Source of the DNA: Amoebophrya sp. A120
Taxonomy: Eukaryota; Protista; Dinoflagellata
Assembly: GCA_905178155.1 (NCBI GenBank)
Contig: CAJINV010000015.1
Location: 2,005,730-2,069,729 of the forward strand
Direction: 5' to 3'
Length of the DNA: 64,000 nucleotides
Shown here: one piece after another, positions 186 to 63,200 of the stretch
How positions within the stretch are numbered: position 1 is the first letter of the stretch
Layout: each line of letters begins with the position of its first letter
Translations under genes and position numbers: made by a program
The notes under the pieces: model-generated
Database searches by the model: none
What the model was told of the DNA's origin: nothing
The model's input: the letters and a program-made list of their open reading frames with translations, nothing else

Positions 186-2254
186 CTACCTCTGGGAAAT
201 CTTCTTCCAAAGCAAATAGAGGTGCAAAAGCAGTAGCAGTGCCGAGCTTGTCTCCGTCGCGGGATTCTCGCAATAATCCGGCATTTCTGTTGCACCATAC
301 GCACTACAGTCTCTCGCTTTCGGCCAATTGTAGCAGAGGTCAATGAGAAACAGGATGAGAAACGGCTTGACCCAGTTGCTCCAGATTGCTGGTATGATCG
401 AATACAAGGCTCGCCACCTGCTGCTGCTGGAAGCACTAGATGTTGATGGTACTAAAAGCACAGCGGCTGTTGACCAGATTGATGCAGTATCAGTTCCACC
501 CCCGCCTATCGCGTCGAAGACCAAAAACGGTAAACTCCAGACATACCACAGATAAAACTGGTAGTGGATTGTTTATGCTCTGCAAAAGTATCGTACTCGT
601 ACTAACTGGAAACATGCATCTTCTCTAAGGCAAAACAGCATTACAAGTTGCATTTGTGATGCTGAGCTAATTTGTAATGCAATTCATGCTACTACGATAC
701 TTTTACAATGCATATTGTTCTGGCGAACACAATGCCAGCGAAGTTTGACCACAGCATCGCTTTCACGAGCTTTGTTTCACGACAGTCCGATGAGGTTTCT
801 GTAGCTGCTGCTTGCTGTTGTGTCCCGTTGCCGTTCATCATCTCCGAATCATTTGCATTGCGTTTATCGTCGTCCAGCACTGTTTTAGTTGTGGACGTCG
901 ATGTTGATCTGCTTGTTCTACTATCGCCCCACGAGGACAAATACACCTTCCGCACGACGAGAAACCAGCCACCAAACGTGCAGACCAGCAACCAAACCGC
1001 CCAGAGTTTTGACAAAAACACCTCTTCCGGCAAGAATCTCCAGTTCACCGTCCACTTGTAAAAAAATTCCCGGCTCAAGTCAAACGACCGATGGATGTAG
1101 GCTTTCGGGTTTGCCAAGAGAAACGGAACAGCGAGGATGAGCTGGATTGCCGCCATGGTGAGGAAAAGGAAGATGGAGTTTCTGGTGATTCGCAATATCG
1201 CCGTCACAAGCCGTGGCTTTTCGTTTTGTTCCACCGTGGTCGTGCTATAATCTTCCCTAACAAACAGGTACCATGCCAGTCCCGGCGCGAAGAGTAGTAA
1301 ATTCATCTTCATGGACACTGCGATGCTGTAAAGCACACACCCCAGAAAAACCTCCCGCTCCGCGAAGAAAAACAAGCTCTGGTGCGCAAACATCATGGCC
1401 GGAAGGTCGTTGAAGAGTCGGAGCATGGTGAGGGAGTAAAGGCGTTTTGAGAATAGGGGGAAAATGGTGAAGTAAATCGGGACTTTCAGATGTGTGACGG
1501 CGAGGTTGGTCACGAAAAAGGTGTTGGTTATGAGAAAGAAGAGAAAGAGGTACTGGACAGGGCGCAACGAATCCGCATTGGTGACGCCGCCTGTGCCACG
1601 ACCTGCTGCAGCGTAGTTGTTGTCGACACTCGCGGTAGTTGTTTGCTCATCTTCTTCCCAACTGAACACTCCATTGTACCTGGTTACCGCTTTCAACCCC
1701 GAGAAGAGATACAGAAATCCGGCTGGGTAGACACACGGGCCAGTGTTGCCGATTATTTTGTAGTAATCAAACTCGCCTCGCTCGAAGAGGGATACTTGCT
1801 CCATATACGCTTTCCAGTCGATCTCCGTGTAGGGGACTTTTTTCAAAATGACGAAAGCGAAAAGGCCATGGAGGAGGGAAATGAGGATGGTGAAGAGTTG
1901 TTTCTGCCGGTTGATGAGAGAATCGAGCCTGCGGAGGAAGGTAATGATCGGGAACCCGCCCTGCTGCAATGCAGCACTTGCTGGTGGTTCTTCTTTTTGC
2001 AGCTGTAACGGATCACCACCAGTACTGGGGATGCTCTCACTAGGAGCGTCTTGGTCTTGTGCCCCATCGGTCGCAGTAGACGCGGTTCCACCGCGACGTT
2101 GTCTTGCGGACATATCCGCAGACGCAGTGAGACTGGTCGTACAACTGTCGGGGTCGGCCTTTATGTTTGTGTGGTGTCGCGCTCGCGCTGCACTAGGTTT
2201 CTTCACACTCGTAGACGCAATCTGTTCGCTCGAAAGGAGAGAGCGAGAAAGCAT
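186..2254 (-). CDS. ALG3: Dol-P-Man:Man5GlcNAc2-PP-Dol alpha-1,3-mannosyltransferase (ALG3), 2 exons
   Basis: Motifs VPYTEIDWKAYMEQV, TGPCVYPAGF, LRLFND, KMNLLLFAPG, KWTVNWRF. Removing the 146-bp element+TSD (574-719) joins VFART|IHYQFYLWYV in frame with ORF 186-524. Confidence 0.95.
574..714. mobile_element. Introner family A (non-canonical intron in ALG3)
   Basis: TIR TATGCxxTGyAAAAGTATCGTA; TSD TTGTT at 569-573 and 715-719; no GT-AG placement. Confidence 0.92.
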
Positions 2255-2720
2255 CTTTTCTTTGCGCGGATTATGGAGGTTGCTGCTGCATATTTATGTT
2301 TCATCTTGTAGTTGTTCTGCAAGTACCTCCAGCTACAGTTACTAAAGGAACTTTTTGAAAAAAAGATCCAGACCAAATATCAAGGCGGGTCGACTTTTAT
2401 TGCAGGTATAAATTCGTGATGATCTACTTCTCTGCTGATCGGGGGGAAGAGAAACACGCTAAACTCGTTATGGCTAGACCACGAAATGAACGAAACAGAA
2501 TCGATTTCCCTGCTACTTCTTACGGAAACGCGCGTGAACAACGTGACCTAGATCCAAAAAAGCGATCTATCGCCAGAAGAATCGTCATCTTGGAACAGCT
2601 GTAGCAAACACAGGACAAGAAAATAGACCTGCAGTCAGGAACGTCGACGACGGCCAGCATACTAGCGGCTTTTTTTTGAGTCTTGTGTTATTTTCCACCT
2701 ATCATACACATCATGGGAGT

Positions 2721-3795: not shown

Positions 3796-3912
3796 TTTTT
3801 TCGAATTTTCACAATTCCTAGAAAGTTCCACTTAGTATTCATCGTGTTCATTTTATGACATCCATCCATGCTTATTTTCCTTCCACGTATCAACCCCTGC
3901 TCTTCATCCTAT

Positions 3913-6900
3913 CTATCCCTGGTCCAGCGCGTTTTGCACGATCGTTTTCATTTTCTCCTTTTTCAACGCCTCCGATCCAAAAATGCTAAACCCCGCCTCG
4001 CAAATCTCCAAAGTGAACACCTTCACGCTCCCTCGCTGCGGAAGGTTTTCGTAGTCTTGTTTCGTTTTCCTTCGGTGGTTTGTGTTATTCGTGTTCTGCA
4101 CGGACAAGTCGTGTTCTTCTTCGTAGGTTGTCCACGGCTCGGATATTGCGGAGTTCTGTTCGTCATCTAGTACCATCTCATGGTTACCGCTGGCATCGAT
4201 GAACTCGGCATTGGCGTATGGGAAGTACCTTTATTGATGGTGTGGGGATGGAGTTTATTGTCTTTGTCATGCGAGAGATAGCATGAGAAAATGAAAATCA
4301 CATCATAGAGCATTTGGATTTGCATTGGACATCCTGCATGACGAAAAAACTAAGGTCCTTGTTCACTACACCAAAAATCTACTTCAATACTGCACAAAGA
4401 AGTCGAATCGGACCGCCGGAATGACCGTTTCTCCACTTTGCGTCATCAACCAGTCGAGCCAGTATCCTGTGCAAAAGTATCGCACTTCCTGGTATAAATT
4501 CCAGACTAGCATGACAAGTCGTGGCCTCTTGGGTAATTTAGCATGACAAATTTAATTTTTCATGCCGAGCTGATTTGTAATGCGATTGATACGTAGTAGG
4601 TACGATGCTTTTGCAGTGCATAGCCAGTCTTCTGCGATGATTTTTGCTTTTTCCGTGGCTTGCCTCAACGCGGTCAAGTCTCCGCGCAAATACGAGATCG
4701 CAACTGATTCGTCCATGTAGTAGAAGTCGCCAGATTATCCACAGTAAATTTGAACAAGAACTTACTCCACACGTACAAAGAAGTGCTAACGATGCATGAC
4801 AAAACTCTTGGCCAATCAAAATCAGCATGCTGGCAGTTCTCATGTTCATCTTTCAGGTCATTGCCAAAGAAATTTGTGATGCAGTTTGTACAGGTGCGGT
4901 TGTAAATCCTAAATTTTTATTGCGTACAAATTCGTTGTTGGCTTTCACCTTATCGAATCTCGTGTACCACACTTGCTTCAGTTCGTTCTTCAGGTAGTAC
5001 AGTCGCAACTCCTATTCTGTGCAAAAGTACCGTACTCGTCGTAATCGTAGTCATGCATTACGAATCTGCTGCGTAAGGTAGATGAGCATGACAAATTTCA
5101 TTTCTCATGCTGAGGAAATTTGTATATGCATTCATACGAATACGATACTTTTGCAGTTCATAACTCCACCGCGTGCGGGATGAACTCCTGAATCAAGATC
5201 CAGTCGAGCAGATGCGCCTGGCCGACGTACTGGTTCGAAATGGTGATGGAGTCCGACAAATCGCTCAACGCGGAGTACTATCCTGTGCAAAATGAATATC
5301 GCGCTCGTACTAATCGCAATCATGCACGACAAATCTCCTTCCCAAGCCAAATCAGCATGGCAAATTTCATGTGCTGTCATGCTGAGCGAATTTGTGTTGC
5401 GATTAGTACCAGTCTACGCAGCTACTTTTGCAATGCATACGGACAACGGGTAGTAGCGTTTCCGGCTGGTGTTGGTGTTCTGCTCCCTAACGTTGTTCCA
5501 CAGCTTTACATCCAACGCTTCCCAGCTGTACCCGAGCTTTGCGACGCCCTTCGTGATTTTTGATGTTGTACTATGGGTTTGACCGTAGTTGTTTCTGTTT
5601 TGATGCATAGCAGAAGATTCCATTTCCAGGTCGTCCTGCATCCAGAAGCCGCTACTCGGACACTTTTCCTTCTCTCGTCCCAGGTCGTCTATCAGAGCCA
5701 CATGCCTTCTGCTGTTCCGCTGTTGTTTCCGCTTTATCTTCTCCAACACTTGCACCGCTTTTTCTGCCGCTTGTGCCGGGTCTTTCTTCACGAACACGCG
5801 GGGGAAGTTCACACTGGCCGGGATTGCAAACTTCGGGTCTAAGGCCAACCCACTGGTCCAAGACTTCGCCGCTAGCTGTTGGTAGAGCAGTGCGTTGTGC
5901 GGGAAGGCGGTGTAAATCCCAAACCGTTCCGCAGCTCGCATCAGGTCGAACATCGGGGCCTGCTCTATGGCGTTCTCAACTGTTACATTCTCAACTGTTA
6001 CATGAGTTTGTGATGCAAGAATGGCAAAAGTGATAGGGGGGATCTTGCGCGTCTTGCATGACAGATTTGGCGCCGATTATCAGCCTGTTTGGCCCTTTGA
6101 GAATTTGTCATGCGAAGCAGCTTGATGGTGTCGATTCTGAAGGCAATGCTGCATGGCAAATCATGCAACGGTTGAGAATGTAACGCTTGAGAACGCCATA
6201 TGCTCCACGTACCCGGCTCCGTAGGCAGAGCCAGTTTGGTACATCGGCTCGGAGAGGAAATCGAAGCTGGACGGGTGCAAGAGCCACATGCTCGCGATTT
6301 TATCGGTCGTGTCGGTATGAATTTTTCCTGCTGGTGCAGCTGGTGCTCCTATGTTCCTTCCGCCTGCCGACAGATGCGACGTAGTACTAGAGGCACTAGA
6401 TGCAGCAGGTAAAGACGAAATCGCGGTGGAGTGTTTCATGATCGGGTTCACAATCAGGTGGAAAGACTTCGCCAAGGTGAAGCACTCGTCCGGTGTGGAG
6501 ACCCAAAACGACCAAACTTCGTAATTTTCGGACCCGAGAACTTCCTTTAACCCCAAATCGGTGAATTGGTACAAAAAGTTCGGGCTCGTGGCGAGAAACT
6601 CGGACTCCTTTGTCGCAGGCACGTATCTCCTATCCTGTACAAAAGTATCGCACTCGTATTGCAGTCATGCATTGCAGATCTTTTTCTTATAGGTAGATCT
6701 GCATTACAGATTTTATTTGTTTCTCATGCTGAGGAAATTTGTAATGCATTAGCATTTATACGAGTACGATACTTTTGCAGTTCATACCTCCCGCCCCAGC
6801 GGAACGCGAGGATGGTGAGCGCTGTCGGGGGCATCGAGGGTTTGATTTCGCTTTCTGTCAGATCTTTCCGGAAAAGATGGAGCTGTATCCTGAGAAAAAA

Positions 6901-8599
6901 CGTCCCCACCCCACAGTCAAGACGGGGGATCTGCTAGACAAATCAACCAGCTTTGGTTGTTTCGCATGACAAGTTTGGTCTCGTAGTGTAATGCTGCTTA
7001 GCTCGTTCAGCAGCATCACAGAGCTTCTAGTCTATCGCGCTGATTGGAGCATTACAAATTCCAAAACACGACTAGAGAATAAGTACTTCTCATGGGGCTC
7101 CGCATGACAAACATTTTTAACATGCAGATCTGCATGACAACTCTGGAGTGGAGACATTTTTACATAGGATAAGCTGCCTCGACTCTTCATCCGCGCAGCA
7201 AAACACCCCTTTTATCTGCTGCAAAAATATCGTACTCGTACTTCTAATTGCGTTTTTGCATTACGAATCTCGGTCTTGAGGCAAATCCGCATTACAAATT
7301 CAATCTGTAATGCTGCCTCGATTTGTAATGCAATTCATACTTGTACGATACTTTTGCAATCCATACCTTTCGCGTCCACCCAATCCGGCCAGGTGGATTT
7401 CACTTTGTAGGTCCTCTCTGCAATTGTGGCGGGTCGTTATCATGGAAGAGAAACTTACCAATACCGACCACGGACGAAACGCACTTGCAAAAACAGCAAA
7501 AAAGTATCTAAAACTGAAAAATCCAGCTCAAAACATGCAACTTGTCATGCTGAAAAAGAGATGCGCGAAATAGTTTTTTCATGCATAAAAAAGTAATTGC
7601 ACCGAGTGTAGAAGTACGTCGGTAAATTATTTCCTGCGGATGGTACAGCGGAGCCGCTTGATATTTCTTTATGCGCGGAGACTATCTCGCCCGGCATCCA
7701 CCCCTCGGTCTTCCCCATCCTTGGGCGGTATGGATTGCAAAAATGTCTGGGCCTGGAAGAGTGCAGGAGTTTGCCATGCAGATTTTGCATGGCCCATGAG
7801 GTCTGTGATGCATGTTGCCCTAGCATCAGAGATCTTGCGAGGGCTTTCTGATGCTCATACCGCATGAGAAATCCCCTCTCCGCGTAGCACAAAATGCATA
7901 TCTTTTGCTGTTCATGCAATACAGATTTTATGTAGAGTCCAGAGGTAGCATCACAAGTTGCATCCTTCCAGACCAAGACATTTTTGCATTTGATAGGCGG
8001 TAAATCCCGAAGGACCGGTCGAGCACGGCGGCATAGGCAGATTGGCCGTTATACAAGAAAAAAACTGCGTAACTATCTTTGGCTGACAACAGCATTACAA
8101 ATTTGCGCTACATGGAAAACCTGTCATGCGTGGCTTGTAAGCGACAACACACATGAAAAGAGAACTCCATAGCTGCCTGGCACGACAGGCGTAACTCTGT
8201 TGCATGTTCTGCATTTCAGAGTCACACTTACACAGTATTTTCCTTGCATAGTCGTCTTTGTTTCTGTACTCCCGGTGAAAGTAGAAGACCTGGTCGCCGA
8301 CTTGGTAGAGACGAGCGGAGGTAAACAAAACGACGCCTGGAAGGTGTAGGTACAGGAAAAGGAAAACCAAAGCGACGTGGTGGAAAGCGATTCTATAAAT
8401 CTTGGGCCACATCATGATCGTGGAAGGAGGTAGAGGCTTCTGGTCGTATGGCTCCTCGGTCCGCTTCTCGATATTGCAGGTTCTTTTCCTTTTGATCGTG
8501 GCCCGAGAAACTGCTCGGATAGAGCTGGATCGATCTTGAAGACAAGGTACTCTTTTCTAGAATCTTCACCGGACTTACTACAGGAGCTAGTTTTTTCAT
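3913..8599 (-). CDS. ATP-grasp-fold-like hypothetical protein, at least 13 exons (5' end uncertain)
   Basis: Excising 12 TIR introns gives one frame from about 8340 to the stop at 3913, with GVAKLGYSWEA, WILIQEFIPHAVELRLYY, VRFDFFV and VFTLEICE in ATP-grasp-like order. Confidence 0.65.
4232..4389. mobile_element. Degenerate introner (TATTGA ends) inside a GT-AG intron at 4229-4390
   Basis: TATTGA...TCAATA and TGGTGT/ACACCA remnants, GCATGA motifs; joins FFVQ|YFPY. Confidence 0.65.
4463..4622. mobile_element. Introner family A
   Basis: TIR TATCCTGTGCAAAAGTATCG; TSD GCCAG; joins EDW|LDWL. Confidence 0.9.
4736..4926. mobile_element. Introner family H (degenerate)
   Basis: TATCCACAGTAAATTT...AAATTTTTATTGCGTA; TSD CAGAT/CAAAT; frame restored. 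Confidence 0.8.
5013..5162. mobile_element. Introner family A
   Basis: TSD ACTCC; joins HAVE|LRLYY. Confidence 0.9.
5279..5439. mobile_element. Introner family A (eroded); GT-AG solution 5278-5440
   Basis: TATCCTGTGCAAAA...TTTTGCAATGCATA; joins YPLS|YSAL. Confidence 0.82.
5966..6200. mobile_element. Introner family D
   Basis: About 40-bp TIR TATGGCGTTCTCAAxxGTTACATTCTCAAC; TSD TGCTC; joins YVEQ|APMFD. Confidence 0.93.
6631..6786. mobile_element. Introner family A
   Basis: TSD TCTCC/CCTCC; joins WGGR|YVPA. Confidence 0.9.
6886..7171. mobile_element. Introner family C
   Basis: TIR TATCCTGAGAAAAAACGTCCCCAC; TSD AGCTG; joins RQL|HLF. Confidence 0.92.
7213..7365. mobile_element. Introner family A
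   Basis: TSD CCTTT; joins GRER|GVLC. Confidence 0.9.
7454..7626. mobile_element. Degenerate TIR intron (TACCGAC/GTCGGTA), boundaries approximate
   Basis: Short inverted repeat, TTGTCATGC motif; a 173-bp removal restores frame (GNNF|SSM). Confidence 0.55.
7729..7995. mobile_element. Introner family B
   Basis: TIR TATxxxxTGCAAAAATGTCT(G/T)GG(C/T)CTGGAAG; TSD GGCGG; joins GIYR|PRMG. Confidence 0.92.
8050..8250. mobile_element. Introner family F
   Basis: TIR TAT(A/G)CAAG(A/G)AAA(A/T)ACTG(C/T)GTAA; TSD GCCGT/GTCGT; joins RNKD|GQSA. Confidence 0.88.
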
Positions 8600-8818
8600 T
8601 TTGATTTTTTATTTTTTCGAAGAACGTAAAAGTAGTACCCTGCTTCGAAGATGAAAACAGAAACAGTTGCAATTGCCTCTCCAGGATGTTGAATAAAAGC
8701 ACTGACTCTCTTTGTCTCTCAACAGCACGGCAGCGCACTCGCCGAATAACATAGTTGTACTGAAGACAACTCATTGCCGCAACTGCTCCCACTTCATCGA
8801 TCCAACGCCACCAGTATG

Positions 8819-8947
8819 TATAGCCTGCTCAAGCTCAGTTGTTACAATCTCAAACGTTTACGCAAAGAATCTGGAATGCAAAACGTAGTGGGAAATCTGG
8901 TTTACCCCTACTCCCAGAGGATTGCCGCGCGACATGATCTAAGTGCC
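8819..8947. mobile_element. Truncated relic of the 9424 element (D-like), inverted, apparently intergenic
   Basis: TATAGCCTGCTCAAG..GTTACAATCTCAAACG..CTACTCCCAGAGGATTGC resembles the reverse complement of the right half of the 9424 element; no second TIR. Confidence 0.65.
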
Positions 8948-9423: not shown

Positions 9424-9675
9424 TATGACTTGCTCAAACGTTACAATCTCAAACGTTACAATAGAATCTGAGACTTGTCTTGCATGATCAACATGACAGA
9501 CTCGGACAGCATTCCACTTTCTGCAATACAAATTTCACCAGATTGTAGTGCGGATTGGGACTCCAGCACTTGTCATGCGCAATCCTGTGGGAGTAGGGTA
9601 GATCATGCACTTCTTGCAACACAAATTCCAGACTCTATTGTCACGCTTGAGATTGTAACACCTGAGCAAGTTATA
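9424..9675. mobile_element. Introner (D-like) immediately 3' of the DUF285 gene 1 stop codon
   Basis: About 47-bp TIR; TSD CTTGA at 9419-9423 and 9676-9680. Confidence 0.9.
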
Positions 9676-9683
9676 CTTGAGTT

Positions 9684-49726: not shown

Positions 49727-52700
49727 TCATTTGTACACAAGTTTCACACTCGGAATCTGCACATCAATGTCGTCTGCGTCTGTGCTGGTAACTTCAATCG
49801 CGAGGAACTTCTTGTACGCCGGCAGTTTTGTTTTGGTCATATGCAATGCAAAAGCATCGCACTAGTGTCAATTGCATTACAAATTAGCCACGCATTACAA
49901 ATTAAATTTGTAATGCTGAACTACCTTGGCATGGAGATTTGTAATGCATAAATGCAATCACTACGAGTACGATACTTTTGCACAGGATAGGTCACCGTCT
50001 CAAACAAGTCCGTGACCTTTTCCGCGGTTCTCTTTTTGTGCGACGGCAGAAACGCGTTGTACAAACACGCGTTGCCGGACGAGAGAATCACGATGTCGCA
50101 CCCGTACCGGTCCTGAATGGTGTCGATCAGTTTTTTCAGCGTGATGTCGTATCCTGTGTAAAAGTATCGCACTCGTATTGCAATCATGCATTACAAATAT
50201 CTTTCTCAAGGCAAATCAGCATTACAAATTCAATTTGTAATGCTGAGAAAATTTGTGATGCATTTCTACTAGTACTTTTACTTTTGCAATTCATATGTCG
50301 CCACTGTCCACGATCACCTTGTCCCAGCTCGTAAAGCCCTCCGGAATTGCCCGCACCGGGCCCGCCAGGATCGGGTCCATGTCGCGGGACTTTACCCGGA
50401 TCGGCTCCGAAGGTTCTGAGAGCACGAAGAGCGGCAGGGCGAGGTTCACAAACGCATTTTTGAAGGGCTCGAGCAGTTTCGCGTCGAATTTGGTGGAGTC
50501 CAAATCCGGGTGCTGCAGCTGCAGGGCGACGATCTTGTAGAGCTCGCAGAGCACCAAACCCGTGATCATCGCGGTAGTAGTGGCGATGGCCGGGATGATT
50601 TTGCCCGCAATCATTTTCACCTTCATAAAATCCGCCTCCTGAATGCTGTAATTCCGCGCGCGGAGGTTGGCGCAGGCGGCGATGAAGGCGATGTGGAAAT
50701 TTGTGTCGTCGTCCTTCTCGAAATCAATCGGGAATAAGGTTCGCAGCTGGGTAGTTTCACTGGCTGCAGACACTTTTGCCAGCAGCTCGGCGGAAAGCGC
50801 GTCGGCTGTGATAGAGCAGTTTGGATTTGGATTTTGATGCTCAGAACGATTTCATAGTACTTCAAGTTGTGTACTGATTACGAGAACAAAAGGATCGTGG
50901 AAATGCGTAAAAACCGCTGCTCCACCTCGAGAGTCGTTGTCGTCGAGCGTCAAATCTAGCAACAGCATGCAGTAGGATACGGAAGGGATTCCTCTAATTA
51001 CCTTTAGTCAAAAGCTCTTGTACCTGCAATTGTATCGTCTGCCGCTCCTTCTTCCACAGTGTCATTGTCATTCACTTTGATTTTCACTCCCTGCTTTGCT
51101 TGAAACGGCTCCACCGTGCAGCCTTTCGCCAGTTTCCGAATCACCTCCTTGTCTTGCACGACCTCCTCACCGAGGTTGTTCAGCAGCAAATTGACGCAAC
51201 CGTGAATGTACCCCAGATGCGTTTCATCAGAGCTGTCAAACCCGATCACCCGCGGCATTCTTTTCGGCCCGGACCAGAACAGCGCGCCCTCGGAGGTCAC
51301 GTGGTCTGCTGGGAAGTTGTGCAGCAGTTGGCCAATCTGGTGGCAGAAATCTTCCTGGAATTGGTTGACCGCGTATTGGGTCAGGGTTTGCTTCAACTGG
51401 TCACTACTCGTGGATTTCTCAACCAACATTCTCTTCACTGCCCTCAACTTGGTCACCTGTGCGGACGCTGCGGATTCTTGCTTCAGTTTTTGCAGAAATT
51501 TCTCCGGATTTTCGAGGAAAGTGTTGACCTCTTGGGCCGCATCCACGAAGCACTTCTGGAAGCTGTCGCGGGCCCACTCGATGGTGTGCTCAATTTGGTG
51601 CGGGAAATGCTGTTTTGATTTTTCATTCATGTCGTTCTTATGCCATGGGAACTACAACTACACTACAAACATAAAGCGCTTTGCATCCAAAAGATTATGC
51701 ATTTCATCAACTATTTGATTTGCAGCTGTCATCTCTGACTTTGTCATCTTTACCACGATCATCATAGTACGAGTACCTTCATCGTGCACAGCGGTATGCT
51801 TTCTTCTGGCGGATCCTGCGAGTCTCCGTAACTTTGCGTCAAGTGTGGCAGCACCACCTGGCTGTTTCCCTTCGTGCCGAGGGTCCCACTTTCGAGCAGG
51901 GGTCGCTCGTACCAGACGCACTTGCTGTCTACGTACAATCTCGCCTGCACGTTATCTAAAGCGTTGATGACGCAGTCCTGACGGTGCCATATCCCACAAA
52001 AAAACTGCTCCACTGTGATGATTTTGAAAGATCTGCATCACAAGTTTGTTACACATGACAGTGAAAATCTGTCATGCGCGCTTTTCAAGAGAAAACACGC
52101 TTGAAAATCCAATGTATTGCAGGTGTAGCAAGACAACTAGTTCTGTGTTCCATTTTCTGCATCACAAGTTCACAGTGAAACAGTTTTTTCTTGCGATATG
52201 CCAAAACTCGTCGTTAAAGGTGTCCTCGGTGTCCGGTCCCACCCGCACCTCCAGCTATCCCCTGTGAAAACGTAGTCACCCCAGAGCTCATGTAATGCAG
52301 ATATGCAACTGCAGGAACATTTGTGATGCGCAGCTCCATGGCAGGCGTTTCCAACCTTATTTTGGATTTTGTGATGTTGTAATCAGGATCAGAAAATGGC
52401 TTTGTCGTGCGGCTGCCTTTGCTAAACTGCGCTACAAGAGTCATGCGCGACTTCCAAAACTTCTGAATTTGTGTTGCTAAGTTCCCAACTTGACTCTGGG
52501 GTCGGGACGTTTTTACTTAGGATATCAGCGCGTTCACATTCAGTGCGCTGTTAAACTCCTTCGCTGATTCGCAGGCGGTGGAGGACTTGGCGGACCCGAC
52601 ATGCTCCCGGTGGAACAGAAACTGTCGGTTCAAATTGGACACCTCAATCCGGTCCATGTCGGTACAAGTGAGCTTCCCTGATGATGAAGATGAGGAGCCT

Positions 52701-55593
52701 GTCGCGCAACACCCCATCAACGCCAACCCCTTCAAAAACTCGCACCCCAACGCGCCCGCGCCGACGACGAAAAGGTTGAGCGATTGGAGCTTTTTCTGAA
52801 AACTTTCGCCAAAGATGGCAATCTGGTCGGCGTACCGGCTGGACTGCATGTTCAAGGTTAGTACATCCCCTACGTTATCGTTGATGCCCGGCATGATGAG
52901 CTCGAACATGTCGAGGTAGAGGTACTGGTGTAGCGGCGTGTACTTCCCCGTAAATTTCACGACCTCCTGCGCGATCAGCCCGCCGAGAAAGGCCGCGAAG
53001 CAGGGCAGAGAGCACTTTTCGTATTTCTGTATTTTCGCAATCAACTCCTCACTGACTTCGGTCTCACTAATTGGGAAGTTGGTCTCCGGCACCTGCTTCA
53101 TTTGCTCCAAATGGGTTTTCGCGGCGTCAACTGCTGATGTTTTTTGTTCTCGGGCAATTCGTACCCCTTCAAACGCGAGATGCATCTGCTCGGGACGCCC
53201 GATCTTGCTGAAATCGCACATGGGAAGGGCGTACTCGCTAGGGGCAACTGGGTTCAAGCGAGAGTCTTGCCAGGAGCGGAATTTCATGGGCTTCGGGACT
53301 TTCACTTGAGTCACAAGGCCCTCCCGCGTATACTGACCAAAAGCGGAGACGTCCTGGGAAGTAGATGGTGATTTCTTTGCATTCGAAATGTGTCCTTGAG
53401 CATCAATAAACCATCGAGCATGCTGCCTAAAAATTCTCATAAATTCTATATGACAAAGAGTTGTCAGTCTCCAATAACAGGAGCTTCCTTCAAAATTGCT
53501 ACTAATCCTACTGACCTAGTACCTTCACTCCTTCTGGCAGCTTTAGCACGAATTGGTATGGCCCGGTCACTCGAATTTCGTACTGTTTGTCGTTAATCCC
53601 GGTCATGCCCTCGACCTCCCGAAACGTTACGAAATCGCCGTCCTCGAACCCGTGCCGCTTGCTCTCGTGCGTCAACACTTCCCCCTTTTCGGAGATGTTC
53701 GCGATGATGGCCGTTTTTGGTTCCTCGCCGTTGCTGTCGCGGATCAAAAACTCGTTGCCAAAGTCCACAAAAACTTTCGCCGCCAGACCCGCATTCTCGA
53801 CAAAAATAAAGCCGGTGCTGCTGGCCCGGCATTTCTCATTCAGGTCGGTTATTTGCTGCGTTGCAAGTGGTATTCCGTCGGAAAGTATTCACAGTAAATC
53901 TACTCCCGTAAACGTACAAATGTGGTCTCTGCATGACAAAACTTAGCTCCGATCCTAGTTTAGCATGACAAGTGTTACAGTCCCAATTGGAAAAATTTGT
54001 GATGCATCTTGTACATGTACGGGAGATTTGTATTGCATAGAAAGCACAACGACGTCGAAATCCTGACTCGGTTTCAAATCCGCCAAGGACTTCACGCTCG
54101 AGTCGACCACTATCAAATGCAAAAATGTCTGGGTCTGGAAACTTGTGATGCAAGTCCGTGAACAATAAGTGCTCTGTAATGCGCCGCCAAGCATGGCAAG
54201 TTTTTTCGTGCTTCTGTGCTGCGTATTCCGCATGAGAAGCTGCGCTTTTGCATGACAGGCAAGAGGACCTCTTGGTGGCCACGCAATACAGAGTGCAGAG
54301 CCATGCCAGACTAGCATGACAAATCTCGCAAAAATCTCCCTGACCGAGACTACATATTTGCATTTGATAACCACCGTCACGGTCACATACGGATTCAGCT
54401 TCTGGAGCTTGGCGCAGCAGGCCTGGGCCCGGGTTTTTTTTTGCTTCACATCTTCCTCCGTGATGTAGAAATTGCGGCCCAAATCGCCCAGCTGGCAAAT
54501 CTCGGTGTCGTAGAGGAGAACCGCTTTGGGGCCAGCGAGCTGTTACAGTGAAAAATGCCCCCGCCCCCAAAGTTGGAATAACTTGTGATGCGAAGTTTCC
54601 AAATGAAAACTTTTTGCCATGCATGAAAGGAGCGTGAATCTTTCTGATACAGAGTCTAGTAGGCGTACATAGCATCGCTTGCATGAGAAGCGCTGTTCTT
54701 GCTGGGGTCTTTTGCAATACAAATTTTTGCTGTTCACAGTTGAAAATCTGTGATGCTGATAGCCGCGAGAGGGCGAGTGTTTCATTTGGAAACGTTTGCA
54801 ATACAAGTGCGCCCAAGGTCTGGCGTGGGGGCATTTTTCATTGTAATACGAGCACCAGATTCTTTGCGACCTCAATCCCCACGCCGGACAAACCCTGGAT
54901 GCAGACACGGAGTTTCACGAGCCTGCAGTTCCAGTTGTCGAAATTTGTATATATGTATGAAAAAAGTGATTTTTTGCATTTCTACTGATGAACTACGGAA
55001 CTGTAAGTTAGAACTACAAAACTTCTCATCAAGACCACATCGCTGCTGAATTTTCATGGTAGTTGCACAACTTCCAGATGTTGCTCGTGGTTGGGCAGGG
55101 TATTACCAATAGAATCGGGGGCAATACACAGTTGCTATGTAGTAACGAACAAGCGAGACTAGTACTTCTTACCTGCCCATCGTCTCCATTCCGAAGGTTC
55201 CGATTTGCCGTGAGTAGAGATCCTTGTTGGTCTATGCAGTGGGAAAAAAAGACCTAATTTTTGTGATGCCTTGTTCCTTAGTGCTTGAGTAATCAGATTC
55301 TTCGAGATGACGCAGTTTGTCACGCATCTTCGTCCAACGAATTTGCTATGCTCGACGTAAATAGACAATAGACGAGTTTGCTATGCTCGACGTAAAAGTC
55401 ATGTTTATGCAGCCACCACTTCGTATGATGCCTGCTACGATGTTGCAGCATAGCTGACTCTGCAATGCTTTTGATGCTTCTGGTGATCTTCGTGATGCGC
55501 GAAGAATTTATGCAAATAAAGCAGGCCGGTTTATTATGGTCTTGCAGCTGATATGATCTCCGGCTCCCGGGAATCGTCCTTCATCTCAACCAT
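49727..55593 (-). CDS. UBA1: Ubiquitin-activating enzyme E1, 13 exons (8 introner introns and 4 GT-AG introns)
   Basis: Reconstructed [59 protein letters not shown], catalytic PLCTMKHFP (Cys about 51786-51788), [25 protein letters not shown] introns at 54923-55172, 53354-53522, 51610-51776 and 50806-51023. Confidence 0.96.
49840..49989. mobile_element. Introner family A (UBA1)
   Basis: TSD GGTCA; joins ETVT|KTK. Confidence 0.92.
50150..50295. mobile_element. Introner family A (UBA1)
   Basis: TSD TGTCG; joins SGD|ITL. Confidence 0.93.
51990..52198. mobile_element. Introner family F-like (UBA1)
   Basis: TSD TGCCA; joins DEFWH|RQD. Confidence 0.92.
52256..52524. mobile_element. Introner family C (UBA1)
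   Basis: TSD CCAGC/TCAGC; joins VNAL|EVRVG. Confidence 0.92.
53886..54039. mobile_element. Introner family H (UBA1)
   Basis: TSD GAAAG; joins VVVLS|DG. Confidence 0.92.
54111..54369. mobile_element. Introner family B (UBA1)
   Basis: TSD ACCAC; joins VTVV|DSS. Confidence 0.92.
54541..54848. mobile_element. Introner, singleton type (TIR T(A/G)TTACA(A/G)TGAAAAATGCCCCC) (UBA1)
   Basis: TSD CGAGC; joins NLVL|AGPK. Confidence 0.92.
55233..55553. mobile_element. Eroded introner forming the first UBA1 intron
   Basis: TAT...ATA ends, TSD TGGTC/TGATC, many TGATGC motifs; joins EPEI|NKDLYSRQ. Confidence 0.78.
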
Positions 55594-57282: not shown

Positions 57283-60200
57283 TCACACCGAAAGCGAAAA
57301 TCCACTCAGGGACCGTTTGCTCGGCGTGTCGGCGTGTTTTTTTAAATGAAAACGACTTTCCGCTCTGGACTGGTCGGATGTGAGTGGGTACGGAGCAGCA
57401 ACAGCAGCACCGGACGTGGCTTGTTCGTCATGCTCCCCTGCGCCGGAGGTGGTCAGCTTCGTTTTCTCCAGACTGGAAGAAGGGGAAGTAGAGTCTTCTA
57501 CTTCATCCAGCTTCTCTTCCGAATCCCATCCCGTCCAGTCGTACGGTGTAAAACCGGTCCAGTCCGACCGCGCCGAAAACCTCTCACGGTACTTCTCCAT
57601 CCAATCTTCCGCTGTAGCCTCCTCCGGGTTCAGCTCCATTCCCCACTTAAGCAGGGCCATAGCGTGCTGTTGGTAGGCTTGTGCCTTTTCTTCAGCGGCA
57701 AGATTCTGCCACACTTCAAGCTGCATGCGCGCCACGTCGGCGCCTTCTGACGTCGGCACGAGGGCCCCGTATTCCAAGAGCTCAGCTGCCGGATCCCAAA
57801 ACCAATGTGCGAAAAAATTGCACAAAAAAATCCGTTGTTCTGACGCGTCAGCCGCACGAGCAGCAGAGCCGCAGTGTCCGGAGATCATTTCGAGGTAGCC
57901 CAGGGGATCCGGCAGCAATTGCAATGCGCGCTGCACCGAAATGTTGTCCTCCCCTACCAGTGTGAACATTTTCCCATCCATGATGCTTTTCAGGCACGCG
58001 AGGCCGTCCACCATGCACGTCATGGCGAAGCCGACAGCGGCATTTTTCGGAGTGCGACGGGAGAAGCTGAAGCCCGGAGTGCTGGCCGCAGTTTCGTCGC
58101 CGGAAGGAGCGGAAGAGGCAGGAGTTGTACTCGGCATTTTTGGCTCCATCCACAAAACCAGCTGATTGCCCTCTTCATCCTCTTCATTCCCGCTCGTAGC
58201 GAACATCATCGGGTCCACTAGTGATCCGCCTCCCATCGTGACGAACCAGGGGAACTTGGGGGCACCACGAGCATCACCCTCCGGGAACATGATTTCGTGG
58301 CTGTGCCCCGATACTGGAGGAAAATCCCCGCTTTCGGCCAACATCGTGTCGTCGTACGCTTCGCCCAACGTCGTGCCCGATTTCTCCTTGTTTCCAGTTC
58401 CCGCTTTCACAACCTTCCTGCCCGTTCTTTTCGCCGTCAGTTTATTCCGACGGCTAGCACGGGCTTGCAAGAACGCTGAAGAGGAGGCTCCTTCCCCGGA
58501 TAGCTCCTCGTCCTGCGACGAAAGTAGACTCAGCATCCAGTCGGGAAGTAGCTGTGGGGCTGCTAGGCTTTGCCCAGCATCAGCACCTTCATCGTCCTCC
58601 ACGACGACTCTCATCCACTTGGGAAAGTGCTGACTGGCCGCGTCCTGTGCGATTGTGGCAGCGCACTGCTGCAGATCGATGATGCAGAGGAGCACGGATG
58701 TCACGCCGACTTCTAGAAGTGTTTGATTTTCCTCTGTAGACAGCAGTGTCCGCGACACAAAGTCTCTCGTGCTCCGTTGTATGTGTTGTTTCATTTCTTC
58801 ATCCTCGGTTTCTGACTTAGGTTGTTCTTGTTCGATGCCACTCTCCGACGTTTCGCTGCTTCCTTGTTGCAGCTCCGAGACGGGACCACGACCATGTTGC
58901 AGACCACTGAGCTCTTGTGCCATGAACACCTCTTCCACGGTCATCGGCTTGGCGAGAAGTTCGGTTGTCAATGCCGCTGCGAGTTTTTCCTCGACTGAAG
59001 ATGCTGCTGCTGTACCTGCTGGATCGGAGGTGGGTGGACTAGTACTAGCCAGTCCCGCAGCAATCACCACTCCCGCTGCAATCTGCTCCGGCTGCAAGTG
59101 GTCACCTTCCGGGAACCGCTCGCGGACGCCGGTTAGCATGGCGCTGAGGGTTGGAACGCCGGAATGATCAAGAGCAGTATCCGTACTGCTAGTACCGATT
59201 TCCCCTGCAAGAAGTTTTCCTGCACAGGCGACCTGGCTGACCATGCAAAGCAGCCCGGTTCGGACAGCCGCCTGGGAGGAATGTTCGTCTTGTTCTTCTG
59301 CGGTTGTACTAAACGCCTTGGATAACCACTGCGGCAACAGATCTTGCTCCTGGGGCGGGTGCAGATGCTCCATTGAGGACAGAAAATCCGGATCAGCAAG
59401 ATGACGAGAGGTCTTCGCAAGGAGAAAGCTACTGGCACTTGTACCAGGTTCTCGCTCGGCTTCGGGAACAACGTCGTGGTAATCCCTGTACGCCCCCGCC
59501 AATTCCATGTGGAGCGCATCCCTCGCCACTTGGGCCGCACAGTATCCACAGTAAATTTCCCGCACACGTACAAACGCAATCTCTGCATGACAAAACTGGG
59601 CTTCGATCGTAGTTTAGCATCACAAGTGTCACACCCCAAATTGGTGAAATTTGTGATGCACTTTGTACATGTACGGAAAATTTGTATTGCATACACAGGG
59701 GCCGAACTTCTTCTCGAAAACGCATTTTAAAGCAGTCATCGGACTCCTCCACGAAAGGCTTTCAGTGGCGGTGCGCAAATTTGTGTACATGCTAATACTC
59801 CCGAGCAGCTCCTCCTCCATTTCTGCGTCAGGCGCGGCGCCGGACGCCAGCGCGAAGTCGATTCCCCCAAGCAGTTCCGACATGAGCACTTCAGTGACCA
59901 CGGGAACCAGCATCAAACCCGGCATTTCCATTGCCCCGCGCACCTGCTCCTCCGTGACCAAGCTATCAATCGCAACGTCCAGCGGGGTGCGCGCAAGACT
60001 GGTCAGCGCCGCCCCCAGATCGGCGTGCGGGACGTCAGAGAGCGCGCCGGTGAGAAGCTCCTTCAGGCAGGCTGCCTGCGACACCCCGCACACCAGGGCG
60101 ACCTCGGTGATCTTCTTGGTCTCCTCGGGAAGAGAACTATGGACAAGGAGAATTTGATACCGTGGTGCTGTCGCCCATTTCGAATAACGAACAACTACAC

Positions 60201-63200
60201 ATGGCACTACTGCAAGATACAAAAGAAGCTTCTTCGGTTGACATTATTTGCGTCAAAAGCATTACAACAACATGACTTACCGGCCTTCAACAAGTTGCGG
60301 TAGAGTAACATCATTCCATGTAATGCGTTTTGTAAGTAGTCGGGACGACAGAGTACACGGTAACTTTTTTTCTATTCCATAACTAGCTTCCAGAAGATCC
60401 GTGGTCCCGCTCTCTGCGGCGGCTGCGATGCGGCTTTTGAACTGCAGTTTGGCCGCTTCCAGCACGTCCCTCTGGGCTCGCGGTCCCGGCTTTTCATCTG
60501 AGAGGGCGCGCAGACTGGAGGCTGAAAAAGCATGCATTTCCGGCTTTTTCATTCCAATTCCCTCCGGCAATGACGAGTTGTAGGCTCCTGTGCTCATCAA
60601 GGCATGCGTCGCCTGAGCCGCAGCAAAGTCAGAATCTTTGCCCAAGATCGCAGCAGCAGCTTCTTTGATGGCAACATCATGATCTTCGTCTTTTTTCTCA
60701 TCATCGTCCTTTTCGAGAAAGGAAGCTGTGGAGGCCCCTGCTGCTGCAGCTTGTTCCGCGCTGGTGCTGCAGTCGTCACCAGTGTTTGCCAAGACGGAGG
60801 CTTCGTCCGCCATCGCAGGTTTGTAGTCGAGAGAAACGACGGAGCCGAGCGCCATCCCCGCGAGTTCCCCCGTCCAAAACATCTTGGCTTGCTGGCAATC
60901 ACTAGACCCGCTGCACTTCTCCCGGAGAGTGTGAAGCAGATCAGAAGACGCGCGACCGCTGCTCAGCACCGTTTTCAGGCACTTGGCCTTCCCCGCAGTC
61001 AGCGAGCGGAAGACGAATCCGAATTCGTAGGTCAAATTCTCAGAGTCCGGATCTTTCACGCATTGCGCACTGTACAACGGCTTCGACTCCACGAATACAT
61101 CGAAGTTGGTTGTCGTCAGAGAAAAAAACGCCTTCAAGGCCTCCTTCACGGGTGTCTCCAGAGCGTTGAGAATCATGTTTGTCGGATCTTGCGGTGGTAC
61201 TGTGTGTGTGCCGATCGAATACCCGGGCTGCTCCCCGCATTTTGTCACACTCATTGTGCCTGGAAAGGACACCTTGACGGATCCGTGCAGTTGGTATTGG
61301 TCGTCGTTTGCCCCCGCGCACTGCTGCTCCGTTTTCGACACGGGTAAGACATTCGCTGTGTAGTGCTTCGTGAAGCCGGCGGTCCCCACGTTCCCGCTCA
61401 CACCGTACTGGCAAAGCACGTTCTTTGCCGTTTCGAACCCCGCGCACCCGAGCTCCGAAGACTCGCCCCAGATGACCTGGGTGTAATGTCCGATGGCGCC
61501 GCCAGTGTTATCGTCGGCGTGCAGGGCTGCGCCCTTCCCCAGGGCAGCTGCTTCGTTGGTCCACGCACCGACTGGGGTGGTGATGCCGCTCGTGCTCAAG
61601 GAGCTCACTGTGACACTAAGATCAGACACGCTCCCAACCGGCCAACCCTGGGTGTACACGATTTCGTCCTCGTACCACATCTTCGTCGCCCGCCCCCAGG
61701 TCGCCGGGTTCAAATCATTATCACCGCCAAACCCAAAAGCGATGTTCTCGCCGAAACTCCCCGTGAATCCGAATTTGTTCTGTCTGGTAGATTTCGGGGA
61801 GTGGTAGCTGTCGGACGCGGGAAAACCGCACATGACTCTCGCCGGGTCGTTGCATTGCGCGTACTGCGCACTGTTCGTCGCCAAGTCTTCGTTCCACACG
61901 AGGGGCGGGGCGTTGTGCAGACAGCGGTACAGGTTGTGCAGCAAAAGGGTTTCGCGCCACTCTTCCGGCGCCGCTTGGGAGATCACGGATTTAGTAGTGC
62001 CCGGGCTGGTAATGCCGCCGGTGGCGCCGTCAACAACAGCAGGAAGATCTTCTTCCGTATCGCCCCCATCGCCATCTTCTTGTCCCCCCGCCACATCTGG
62101 TTCTACTCCCTCCTCAGCTGGCGTTTGCTCCGGCGCTTCCGTTTCTACTTCATCTTCGTGCGGTGACGTTCCGTCCTCGGGCGAAGATTCATCATCCGGA
62201 CTTTGTGGTTCCTCTGTTTGCTGTTCCGCTTCACCAGGAGGAGCACCCGCTGCACCATCACCACCATCCGCTTCAACCTCTTCCTCCTCTTTCGAGCCTC
62301 CCCATGGAAGAGGGCCGTCAAAAGAGTCAAATGCGGCAGCAGCTGCTTCGTTTGCCGCCTGAAAGAGGTTTTCCGCATGCGAGAGAGAGTCGAGAATCCA
62401 GCTGGAAAGCTGTTTTTCAATCTTGTCCGTTTGCCGCACGAGCCAGGCTGGCGCGCCGCCCAGCGTGGTCGCCCGCGTCAGGAGTTCCATCACGCAGTAG
62501 GGGTTGTGCGTCACGCCTGCTCTTGCGCACTGGGCCGCTGTCTCGGTGTCGTCAGAAGCGAAACTGCCCGTCGCGGTCACCAAATTGTCAATCATTCCGT
62601 CATCCACGGTAACGGAGCCGGGGCTGTGAAGCATCAAATCAGCCTATGCATTGCAAAAGCACAGCTATCGCTATCGTACCGGTTGTACAGCGCCTACCTG
62701 CTAGTAGTTCTAGACCTTAGGTTCTTGCGTGATACAGTCACAAAAAATTATCAATTACCTTATAATCGAAATTGTTCTGGGAGTGAGACAAAAGATCTTG
62801 GCTGTGCACATCATGATGCTGCGGGGCAGCAATTACCAGTACGACTGCGATACTTGTTCTTGTTTTGCGATTGATACATCAGTCACATCGACGAGGCCAG
62901 CTTCAACTTCGGATTGGAGCTCTGCGGCCACTTCCTCAGGTGGGGTGCCGAATGGTGGCGGCGGGCCGCCGTCCACGATTTCCGGAGGGGGGTGATCGCC
63001 CAGGCTTCCGCCCTCGCCCGGACCACCTGCGGCCGGTTCGCCCGCATCAGCCGGTTCGCCCGCATCAGCCGGTTCGCCCGCATCAGCCGGCTCGCCCGCA
63101 TCGGCCGGTTCGCCCGCATCAGCCGGTTCGCCCGCATCAGCCGGCTCGCCCGCATCGGCCGGTTCGCCCGCATCGGCCGGTTCGCTCGCAGCCGGTTCGC

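What the first reader, a model, noticed from the sequence alone, without database searches (positions are those of the whole stretch)
574..62876. About 55 TIR + 5-bp-TSD transposon-like introns (introners) in at least 9 families, mostly without GT-AG boundaries
Seen: elements of 109-322 bp with TAT...ATA termini, TIRs up to 58 bp and mostly 5-bp direct repeats. For the large majority of coding insertions, deleting element + one repeat restores frame and conserved motifs; a few eroded copies use GT-AG instead. Many (574, 13258, 22853, 49840, 50150, 51990, 53886) have no GT-AG placement. Copies occur in both orientations relative to transcription (13258 vs 13598). Known: IR/DR-bearing non-canonical introners have been reported in Amoebophrya genomes, and as far as I know the excision mechanism is unresolved. 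Inference: a structure- or protein-guided, orientation-independent removal system linked to a non-autonomous DNA transposon (TAT termini, 5-bp TSD) that I cannot assign to a known superfamily. No transposase is in the window.
Basis: partly seen in the sequence, partly recalled or inferred. Interest (0 to 1): 0.92.

Follow-up and report, generated by a model that had tools for sequence, protein, structure and literature searches.

The report
Amoebophrya transposon introns lacking GT-AG ends
These are the already published transposon-derived introns of the plankton parasite Amoebophrya strain A120: about 55 small hairpin-ended insertions that are missing exactly from the spliced transcripts checked although most lack normal splice signals, and that are likely removed by a loosened form of the ordinary splicing machine.

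Summary
Confirmed but already known. The window is Amoebophrya sp. A120 (exons 100% identical to named A120 proteins). It holds 55 TAT…ATA elements of 109-322 bp (17.8% of the window). They match the A120 introner elements of Farhat 2021 (TAT-N7-AAA repeats, 5-bp direct repeats).

Spliced-RNA contigs fit removal of element plus one repeat at 5 elements; two annotated proteins show it at 18 of 20.

Added here:
(1) Imperfect repeats pin one cut register, 1 nt before TAT and 4 nt after ATA, in the direction of transcription.
(2) There is no GT or AG enrichment at that register, but spliceosome-type G-G/A-C terminal pairs are enriched (66 of 303, 21.8% vs 14.0%).
(3) All groups share a 10-bp internal motif, often 31-32 bp apart, a likely protein-binding array.
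(4) The same families occur in a sister lineage.

No transposase was found in the ORFs scanned. Best mechanism: a relaxed U2-type spliceosome positioned by the terminal hairpin (about 0.6); rival: an endonuclease-ligase route (about 0.3).

The parts
574..714 (.). Introner, group 1, in the ALG3 gene
   Evidence: perfect 5-bp repeat; removal gives a 653-aa frame
4232..4389 (.). Eroded introner, now a GT-AG intron (4229-4390)
   Evidence: annotated protein P0121
4463..4622 (.). Introner, group 1
   Evidence: exact removal matches P0121
4736..4926 (.). Eroded introner (TAC end), imperfect repeat
   Evidence: exact removal; register 0-2
5013..5162 (.). Introner, group 1
   Evidence: exact removal matches P0121
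5279..5439 (.). Introner, group 1, imperfect repeat
   Evidence: P0121 allows only register 1 or 2
5966..6200 (.). Introner, group 6
   Evidence: exact removal matches P0121
6631..6786 (.). Introner, group 1, GT-AG at register 1
6886..7171 (.). Introner, group 3
   Evidence: exact removal matches P0121
7213..7365 (.). Introner, group 1, GT-AG at register 1
7438..7645 (.). Eroded introner; annotation removes length+2
7729..7995 (.). Introner, group 4
   Evidence: exact removal matches P0121
8050..8250 (.). Introner, imperfect repeat
   Evidence: P0121 allows only register 0 or 1; ends CT-GG at register 1
9424..9675 (.). Introner just after a stop codon; 64-bp inverted repeat
13258..13399 (.). 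Introner, group 1, DUF285 gene
13598..13742 (.). Introner, group 1, opposite orientation to 13258, same gene
16176..16324 (.). Introner, group 2, after a stop codon
17121..17381 (.). Introner, group 4
21516..21783 (.). Introner, singleton, imperfect repeat
21867..22115 (.). Introner, group 6, imperfect repeat, GT-AG at register 1
22853..23137 (.). Introner, group 3
23557..23836 (.). Introner, group 3
24264..24372 (.). Introner, group 5, shortest (109 bp)
28810..29045 (.). Introner, group 6
29097..29210 (.). Introner, group 5, imperfect repeat
29650..29949 (.). Introner, group 4
31692..32013 (.). Introner, singleton, longest (322 bp), GT-AG at register 1
32066..32226 (.). Introner, group 7, imperfect repeat
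33141..33292 (.). Introner, group 1, imperfect repeat
33361..33562 (.). Introner, group 8
33712..34018 (.). Introner, group 9, outside a long frame
34936..35146 (.). Introner, group 8
35625..35744 (.). Introner, group 5
35808..36087 (.). Introner, group 3
37115..37259 (.). Introner, group 1
37632..37938 (.). Introner, group 9, imperfect repeat
40486..40740 (.). Introner, group 4
40792..40902 (.). Introner, group 5
41189..41399 (.). Introner, group 8, imperfect repeat
42001..42122 (.). Introner, group 5
42581..42747 (.). Introner, group 7
43416..43575 (.). Eroded introner, group 7, one end lacks its last base
43607..43872 (.). Introner, group 4
47614..47762 (.). Introner, group 1
   Evidence: RNA contig record 10 fits exact removal
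47814..48121 (.). Introner, group 9, 58-bp inverted repeat
   Evidence: RNA contig record 10 fits exact removal
49840..49989 (.). Introner, group 1, in the E1 gene
   Evidence: exact removal matches P0001
50150..50295 (.). Introner, group 1, opposite orientation to 49840
   Evidence: exact removal matches P0001; predicted to pair with 49840
51990..52198 (.). Introner in the E1 gene
   Evidence: RNA contig record 12 and P0001
52256..52524 (.). Introner, group 3, imperfect repeat
   Evidence: RNA contig stops at 52526 and P0001 excludes register 0
53886..54039 (.). Introner, group 2
   Evidence: RNA piece ends at 53880; P0001 exact
54111..54369 (.). Introner in the E1 gene
   Evidence: P0001 exact
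54541..54848 (.). Introner, singleton, one end TGT
   Evidence: P0001 exact
55233..55553 (.). Eroded introner, imperfect repeat
   Evidence: P0001 exact; register 0-2
59543..59693 (.). Introner, group 2
62645..62876 (.). Eroded introner in a CAP-domain gene; frame is kept by length+5 or by a GT-AG cut of length+2
49730..55593 (-). Host gene: ubiquitin-activating enzyme E1, 1068 aa, with 8 introners and 4 plain GT-AG introns
   Evidence: P0001
3916..8415 (-). Host gene of P0121, 706 aa, no Pfam family, with 12 introners

Best explanation
These are small non-coding hairpin-ended insertions, inferred to be miniature DNA transposons, that sit in either orientation inside genes of Amoebophrya A120, are absent exactly (element plus one 5-bp repeat) from the spliced products checked, and are likely cut out of the pre-mRNA by a relaxed U2-type spliceosome. 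Steps: (1) Shown: TAT...ATA inverted repeats, 5-bp target duplications, many families, both orientations. (2) Inferred: one protein supplied in trans, probably an integrase-type transposase, mobilises all families by binding the shared internal 10-bp motif arrays spaced about three DNA turns apart. (3) Shown for the junctions checked: the transcript loses length+5 nt. (4) Inferred from five imperfect repeats and the published splice-site table: the cuts lie 1 nt before TAT and 4 nt after ATA. The intron therefore starts N-U-A-U, with the transposon supplying positions +2 to +4 of a donor site in either orientation, and ends at any dinucleotide. (5) Inferred: the terminal hairpin (predicted) or a bound protein brings the ends together and sets the 3' cut by distance, standing in for U1 and AG recognition. 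Because 1+4 equals the 5-bp duplication, a new insertion leaves the protein unchanged, which would let the elements spread through coding exons.
For: Organism: exons 100% identical to named A120 proteins. Exact removal: RNA contig record 10 leaves 45 nt between pieces, as predicted for 47614 plus 47814; record 12 leaves 261 nt, as predicted for 51990 plus 52256 plus a 167-nt GT-AG intron, and the same record skips three plain GT-AG introns, so it is spliced RNA. P0001 exact at 8 of 8 and P0121 at 10 of 12 elements. No indel at conserved E1 junctions against homologues. Register: 5279 allows 1-2, 8050 0-1, 52256 1-5, 55233 and 4736 0-2; only 1 fits all five. All nine predominant non-canonical A120 splice types in Farhat Table S4 begin N-T. 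For the spliceosome: plain E1 introns begin GTA, A25 introners begin TTA, A120 N-TAT, so all share T+2 A+3. First/last-base pairs G-G or A-C, named as the isosteric spliceosomal pairs in PMC13326754 section 30, occur in 66 of 303 perfect-repeat elements (21.8% vs 14.0%, p=0.0002), separately in the window (12 of 38) and the related loci (54 of 265). The mirror position is not enriched (43 of 303, 14.2% vs 12.3%). U2, U4, U5, U6 and nearly all spliceosomal proteins are reported present in A120, U1 snRNA not detected. Hairpin: terminal TAT/ATA paired with probability above 0.5 in 42 of 49 folds. Motif: at least 2 copies in 50 of 50 window elements and in 262 of 262 elements picked without using the motif (7 of 262 after shuffling); same-strand spacing peaks at 31-32 bp.
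Against: At register 1 there is no excess of G at +1 (122 of 387, 31.5% vs 30.4%) or of AG at the end (30 of 387, 7.8% vs 6.7%); all 16 end dinucleotides occur and about 80% of elements lack G-G/A-C pairs. A drift of mutated repeats towards GT seen in the window (4 of 5) did not replicate in the related loci (4 upstream-G vs 8 downstream-G). Four of the five register cases rest on annotated proteins, not on reads I saw. A prospective register test was inconclusive because the locus came from another lineage and the element lay inside a small intron. Two eroded elements are removed as length+4 and length+2. No branch point was identified. No transposase was found, and Farhat reports none in A120. 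The motif's role is untested and it could act on RNA instead.
Confidence: 0.6

Rival explanations
1. Same elements and same register, but removal is not spliceosomal: a hairpin- or motif-guided endonuclease cuts 1 nt before and 4 nt after the stem and a ligase joins the exons, as suspected for euglenid nonconventional introns.
For: No G+1 or AG preference and all end dinucleotides tolerated. No orientation bias: 47 versus 42 among 119 group-1-type elements. Predicted terminal stem in 42 of 49. U1 snRNA not detected in A120. Euglenid precedent with circular excised introns (passages of PMC11282704). Two RNA contig ends (50297 and 49838) would both be explained by one product joining the outer ends of the inverted neighbours 50150 and 49840, which are predicted to pair with each other.
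Against: T+2 A+3 is shared with plain introns and with the independent A25 introners. G-G/A-C terminal pairs are enriched in the direction of transcription only. An eroded copy has become an ordinary GT-AG intron. The outer-end product is inferred from contig ends only and fits a hairpin-guided spliceosome equally well.
Confidence: 0.3
2. The junctions are reverse-transcription artefacts (slippage between direct repeats at the base of a hairpin) and the mRNAs retain the elements.
For: Hairpin plus short direct repeats is the geometry of such artefacts (passages of PMC8240250). All RNA evidence here is cDNA-based.
Against: E1 carries 8 elements, yet the spliced protein stays collinear with the A25 orthologue (63% identical in the queried exon) and other homologues. 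Slippage would be expected to keep the downstream repeat copy, whereas the upstream copy is kept at positions 3-4 even when the copies differ (inference). It remains a fair reading for the minor outer-end product.
Confidence: 0.03
3. The elements are excised from DNA (programmed elimination), so transcripts come from element-free templates.
For: Exact loss of element plus one repeat is what precise DNA excision would give.
Against: In run X1, which behaves as DNA, the listed contigs run from unique sequence through the repeats into the elements at even depth of about 26-32. No empty-site joint is among the 15 joints shown, although 1,070 were not shown. The cut register follows transcript direction, which DNA excision would not be expected to do.
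Confidence: 0.03
4. Ordinary splicing at nearby cryptic GT/GC-AG sites restores the frame with small indels.
For: Many elements have in-frame GT/GC-AG alternatives within 12 nt; 62645 and 4232 can use GT-AG.
Against: 18 of 20 annotated junctions and the 5 checked in RNA contigs are exact length+5 removals; 8050 ends CT-GG or TA-GC.
Confidence: 0.02

Closest known systems
Introner elements / non-canonical introns of Amoebophrya sp. A120 (Farhat et al. 2021, PMC7789003; abstract, sections 11, 12 and 16, passages, supplement Table S4 and legends read; figures not seen)
   Same: Same genome; inverted repeats starting TAT, seven variable bases, then at least three A; direct repeats of 3-5 nt (5 bp in the Fig. 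S19 legend); 17% of the assembly versus 17.8% of this window; RNA-supported removal; N-T donors predominate; mechanism left open.
   Different: Not different in kind. Not found in the text I read: the single 1+4 register pinned by imperfect repeats, the G-G/A-C pair excess, the shared internal motif with 31-32 bp spacing, and the same families in a sister lineage (the paper calls them strain-specific, comparing A25 and A120).
A120 introner families of Gozashti et al. 2025 (PMC12130899; section 6, passages, and 40 of 58 A120 rows of supplementary file 8 read)
   Same: Mostly unclassified TIR DNA transposons of about 105-320 bp with mixed non-canonical ends; family 38 is annotated '5-bp TSD, TA/TA termini' and labelled Ginger in the table.
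   Different: Their text says family 38 lacks Ginger homology, termini and TSD. I could not map window groups to their family numbers (no sequences in the rows seen).
Non-canonical introns of Fritillaria borealis (PMC13326754, abstract and sections 29-30; passages of PMC11282704)
   Same: Transposon-derived, TIR/TSD-bearing introns removed by a modified U2-type spliceosome; works as the precedent for the best explanation.
   Different: There the ends are mainly AG-AC/AG-AT with U1 retained and U2AF duplicated; here both the first base and the last dinucleotide are free and U1 snRNA was not detected.
Euglenid nonconventional introns (passages of PMC11282704)
   Same: Terminal stem, repeats at the junctions, non-canonical ends, unknown machinery.
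   Different: Different stem offset and end consensus; excised as circles there, unknown here.
Ginger DNA transposons, including TDD-4/TDD-5 (passages of PMC2836005)
   Same: Inverted repeats of tens of bp; TDD-4 and TDD-5 make 5-bp duplications.
   Different: Ginger termini are TGTNR and most make 4-bp duplications; these start TAT and no transposase was found.

Membership tests
Amoebophrya A120 introner elements | Occurs in the A120 genome | tested here: met
   Two exons 100% identical to proteins named Amoebophrya sp. A120
Amoebophrya A120 introner elements | Inverted repeats starting TAT, 7 variable bases, then an A run | tested here: met
   Logo of 99 ends: T99, A98, T99; A at positions 11-14 in 80-96; definition
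Amoebophrya A120 introner elements | 3-5 nt direct repeats at the exon/intron boundary | tested here: met
   38 of 49 perfect 5-bp repeats, 11 imperfect
Amoebophrya A120 introner elements | Repeated in families | tested here: met
   8 multi-copy groups among 50 elements; summed contig depth in run X1 in the thousands over the elements against about 30 in unique sequence
Amoebophrya A120 introner elements | Absent from the mRNA | tested here: met
   5 elements in RNA contigs, one of them seen from one side only; 18 of 20 exact in annotated proteins; the other 33 have neither kind of evidence
Amoebophrya A120 introner elements | Mostly non-GT-AG ends | tested here: met
   GT-AG possible in 8 of 49 window elements and 15 of 261 oriented elements
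U2-type spliceosomal intron | GT/GC donor and AG acceptor | tested here: not met
   13 of 387 GT-AG at register 1; no G+1 or AG excess
U2-type spliceosomal intron | Isosteric first/last base pair (G-G or A-C) | tested here: inconclusive
   Enriched (66 of 303, p=0.0002) but absent in about 78%
U2-type spliceosomal intron | Lariat intermediate and dependence on U2/U6 | not testable with these tools
   Needs lariat sequencing or inhibition
Ginger / integrase-type DNA transposon | TGTNR termini | tested here: not met
   98 of 99 ends start TAT, one TGT; definition
Ginger / integrase-type DNA transposon | 4-bp duplication (5 bp in TDD-4/5) | tested here: inconclusive
   5 bp here, matching only the TDD subgroup
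Ginger / integrase-type DNA transposon | Cognate element encoding an integrase-like DDE transposase | tested here: inconclusive
   None in 6 longer elements, 63 window ORFs or 144 of 273 locus ORFs; whole genome not held
Euglenid-type nonconventional intron | Excised as full-length circles without lariat | not testable with these tools
   No data on excised RNA

The most novel reading that the evidence does not exclude
All A120-type introner families are one system: a single, still unidentified integrase-type protein binds the shared 10-bp motif arrays and mobilises them, and the host spliceosome has dropped its need for G+1 and AG and places the 3' cut four bases from a hairpin. The 5-bp duplication equals the 1+4 overhang, so any insertion in any orientation is a silent intron. 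This would be a spliceosome that finds its acceptor by structure and distance rather than by sequence, co-adapted with its own transposon, and shared with at least one sister lineage.
Probability: 0.3. Interest if true: 0.8.

Novelty: already known. Interest (0 to 1): 0.45.

Why it matters
The elements are published, but how Amoebophrya removes tens of thousands of introns without GT-AG ends is stated as open in the sections I read. The fixed 1+4 register, the transcript-directed excess of spliceosomal terminal pairs and the shared internal motif turn that question into specific tests: lariat versus circle, a motif pull-down for the missing transposase or splicing factor, and a predicted mis-joined product at inverted neighbours. 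If the spliceosome does this it tolerates more end variation than the tunicate case; if not, it is a second nuclear intron-removal route.

Tried and rejected
Whole genome not held; the assembly behind the related loci is not searchable either.

Sequencing runs: no listed holder is on record as RNA; X3 was accepted as spliced RNA only because it skips plain GT-AG introns. Raw RNA runs X9 and X10 cover only element ends, not the exons, and give no junctions. Reads were obtained for 40,301-60,200 only, with tables cut to the best-supported rows, so junctions in the rest of the window and the suspected outer-end product remain unseen.

Drift of repeats towards GT and AG: seen in the window, not replicated in 212 or 338 oriented elements from related loci. 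Mismatch excess at repeat position 5 over position 1 replicated (24 vs 10, p=0.024), but the five-position test was not significant there (p=0.11); of 385 locus elements, 47 could not be oriented and were dropped. The prospective register test was inconclusive.

Autonomous element: six elements of 457-1,356 bp carry no recognisable transposase; 129 of 273 locus ORFs and the window's 21.4-41.5 kb part were not scanned against Pfam. The 15 viral-contig matches and 2 other metagenome matches are chance hits without an element.

Earlier scan notes: none for this genome.

Literature: eight searches and a term search in Farhat turned up no description of the internal motif. Farhat's Figs 3-4 and S19-S25 are images I could not see, 18 A120 rows and one supplementary file of Gozashti 2025 were not read, and Roy et al. 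2023 (Curr Biol) was seen only as a citation, so any of these may already hold it.

Full report
Observation. The elements are real. A scan for TAT...ATA ends with inverted repeats and 5-bp direct repeats found 44 candidate pairs (40 distinct elements) against 0 in each of 20 simulated sequences. Further searches brought the total to 55 elements of 109-322 bp covering 11,412 bp, 17.8% of the window. Of 49 clean elements, 38 have perfect repeats. Among 50 elements there are 8 multi-copy groups and 7 singletons, and 7 of the 8 groups occur in both orientations. All long reading frames are on the minus strand; deleting element plus one repeat puts 46 of 51 tested elements inside frames of 177 aa or more. 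Only 8 of 49 can be read as GT-AG within the repeat.

What it is. An exon of the E1 gene and an exon of a second gene are 100% identical to proteins named Amoebophrya sp. A120. Farhat et al. 2021 (PMC7789003; abstract, sections 11, 12, 16, passages, Table S4 and supplement legends read) describe A120 introner elements whose inverted repeats start with TAT, then seven variable bases and at least three A, with 3-5 nt direct repeats, making up 17% of the assembly. Gozashti et al. 2025 (PMC12130899; section 6 and 40 of 58 A120 table rows read) list 58 A120 families, most of those seen being unclassified TIR transposons, one noted as '5-bp TSD, TA/TA termini'. The finding is therefore a known feature of a described genome.

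Removal from RNA. In run X3 (RNA by guess, but it skips three plain GT-AG introns), record 10 leaves 45 nt between its listed pieces, which is what exact removal of 47614 and 47814 predicts. Record 12 leaves 261 nt, which equals exact removal of 51990 and 52256 plus the 167-nt GT-AG intron 51610-51776; another of its pieces stops at 53880, next to the repeat of 53886. The annotated E1 matches exact removal at 8 of 8 elements and the second protein at 10 of 12, the two exceptions being eroded copies. Run X1 contigs pass from unique sequence into the elements at even depth, so the DNA holds them; only 15 of 1,085 joints were shown.

The cut register. Where the two repeat copies differ, the product shows which copy was kept. 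Counting k as the number of upstream-repeat bases inside the intron, 5279 allows k=1-2, 8050 k=0-1, 52256 k=1-5 (also seen in the RNA contig, which stops at 52526), and 55233 and 4736 k=0-2. Only k=1 fits all five. It agrees with Farhat's Table S4, where all nine predominant non-canonical A120 types begin N-T. Four of the five cases rest on annotation. A prospective test on a related locus was inconclusive. The intron thus runs N-TAT...ATA-NNNN in the direction of transcription, whichever way the element points (47 versus 42 among 119 group-1-type copies).

Which machine. A pattern scan fetched 146 loci, 144 from one assembly, with 379 more short elements in 442,601 bp; a gene there is 79% identical to its A120 orthologue, so this is a sister lineage with the same families. 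In 387 oriented elements (338 from loci, 49 from the window) there is no excess of G at +1 or AG at the end, and all 16 end dinucleotides occur. A drift towards GT suggested by the window did not replicate. This counts against ordinary splice-site recognition. Three things point back to the spliceosome. First, plain E1 introns start GTA, A25 introners TTA and these N-TAT, sharing T+2 and A+3; U+4 suits U6 pairing when its methylation is low (PMC13326754 section 29; not tested in A120). Second, the two first/last-base pairs named as isosteric for the spliceosome, G-G and A-C (section 30), are the two commonest here. They occur in 66 of 303 perfect-repeat elements against 14.0% expected (p=0.0002; 12 of 38 in the window, 54 of 265 in the loci), while the mirror position, which a symmetric target preference would also raise, is not enriched (43 of 303). 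I chose this test after reading that section; eight position comparisons were made per data set and codon phase was not controlled. Third, the paper reports U2, U4, U5, U6 and nearly all proteins present with U1 snRNA undetected. The terminal stem is predicted in 42 of 49 folds. I put a hairpin-positioned, relaxed spliceosome at about 0.6 and an endonuclease-ligase route at about 0.3.

An indirect hint of end-pairing. Two X3 contigs end at 50297 and 49838. One product joining the 5' cut of 50150 to the 3' cut of 49840 would create branches at exactly those places, and these two inverted copies of one family are predicted to pair with each other rather than with themselves. The junction itself was not seen, and template switching during cDNA synthesis (PMC8240250 passages) or a +3-nt product could give the same ends.

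A shared internal motif. Every group carries copies of a 10-bp motif (YYTGTNWTGC; 159 core matches in 9,724 bp of elements against 33 in 54,276 bp outside). All 50 window elements tested have at least two. In 43 of 50, from 11 of 12 hand-merged groups, two copies lie 30-32 bp apart on the same strand, against a mean of 6.7 and a maximum of 15 in 2,000 randomisations. In 262 locus elements picked without the motif, 262 have two or more (7 after shuffling) and 213 have 30-33 bp spacing. Three of four plain E1 introns have none and one has a single weak match. A spacing of about three DNA turns suggests binding sites for one DNA-binding protein, most simply a shared transposase; that is inference. 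No transposase was found in six longer elements, 63 window ORFs or 144 of 273 locus ORFs. TAT ends fail the Ginger TGTNR criterion, so the elements are not filed there.

Verdict. Observation confirmed; interpretation partly supported; feature already known in this genome. The register, the terminal-pair excess, the motif array and the sister lineage were not in the text I read, but figures of Farhat 2021, part of the Gozashti 2025 supplements and Roy et al. 2023 were not seen. They sharpen an open mechanistic question, hence interest 0.45.

Noticed in passing
L001-L146 (144 loci from one assembly): A sister lineage (one exon 79% identical to the A120 protein P0129) carries all the window's introner groups at about 68-95% identity, so the families are not confined to strain A120.
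   Followed up: partly
L012:427-883 and L026:6184-6998: Two long copies of different families share a 190-bp, 98% identical internal insert that includes a short CAT repeat run; possibly a nested truncated retroelement.
   Followed up: no
L004:277-1089, L075:2085-3440, L007:505-1608, L074:1561-2313: Long introner copies with GC-rich internal cargo, some with their own inverted repeats, and no recognisable transposase.
   Followed up: partly
window 43607-43638, run X9: A raw RNA run that lacks the window's exons has about 90 reads matching this element end with another flank and the same internal motif, suggesting a further related strain.
   Followed up: no
window 9687-11777 and 12613-14925: Two neighbouring DUF285 repeat paralogues; one has no introner in its frame, the other has two in opposite orientations.
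   Followed up: no
window 1-64000: All long reading frames lie on the minus strand, as in the co-oriented gene blocks described for Amoebophrya.
   Followed up: yes
window 60280-63882: A CAP-domain gene with a proline/alanine-rich repeat region, split by the eroded element 62645-62876.
   Followed up: partly
window 20870-21514: A tandem repeat region that reads open on both strands.
   Followed up: no
L029:1017-4246: Erythromycin-esterase-like domain pieces next to ubiquitin-conjugating and RING-variant domains in the sister lineage.
   Followed up: no
L034:4671-4903: An introner that appears to sit inside a 33-nt segment absent from the A120 orthologue, probably a small intron.
   Followed up: partly
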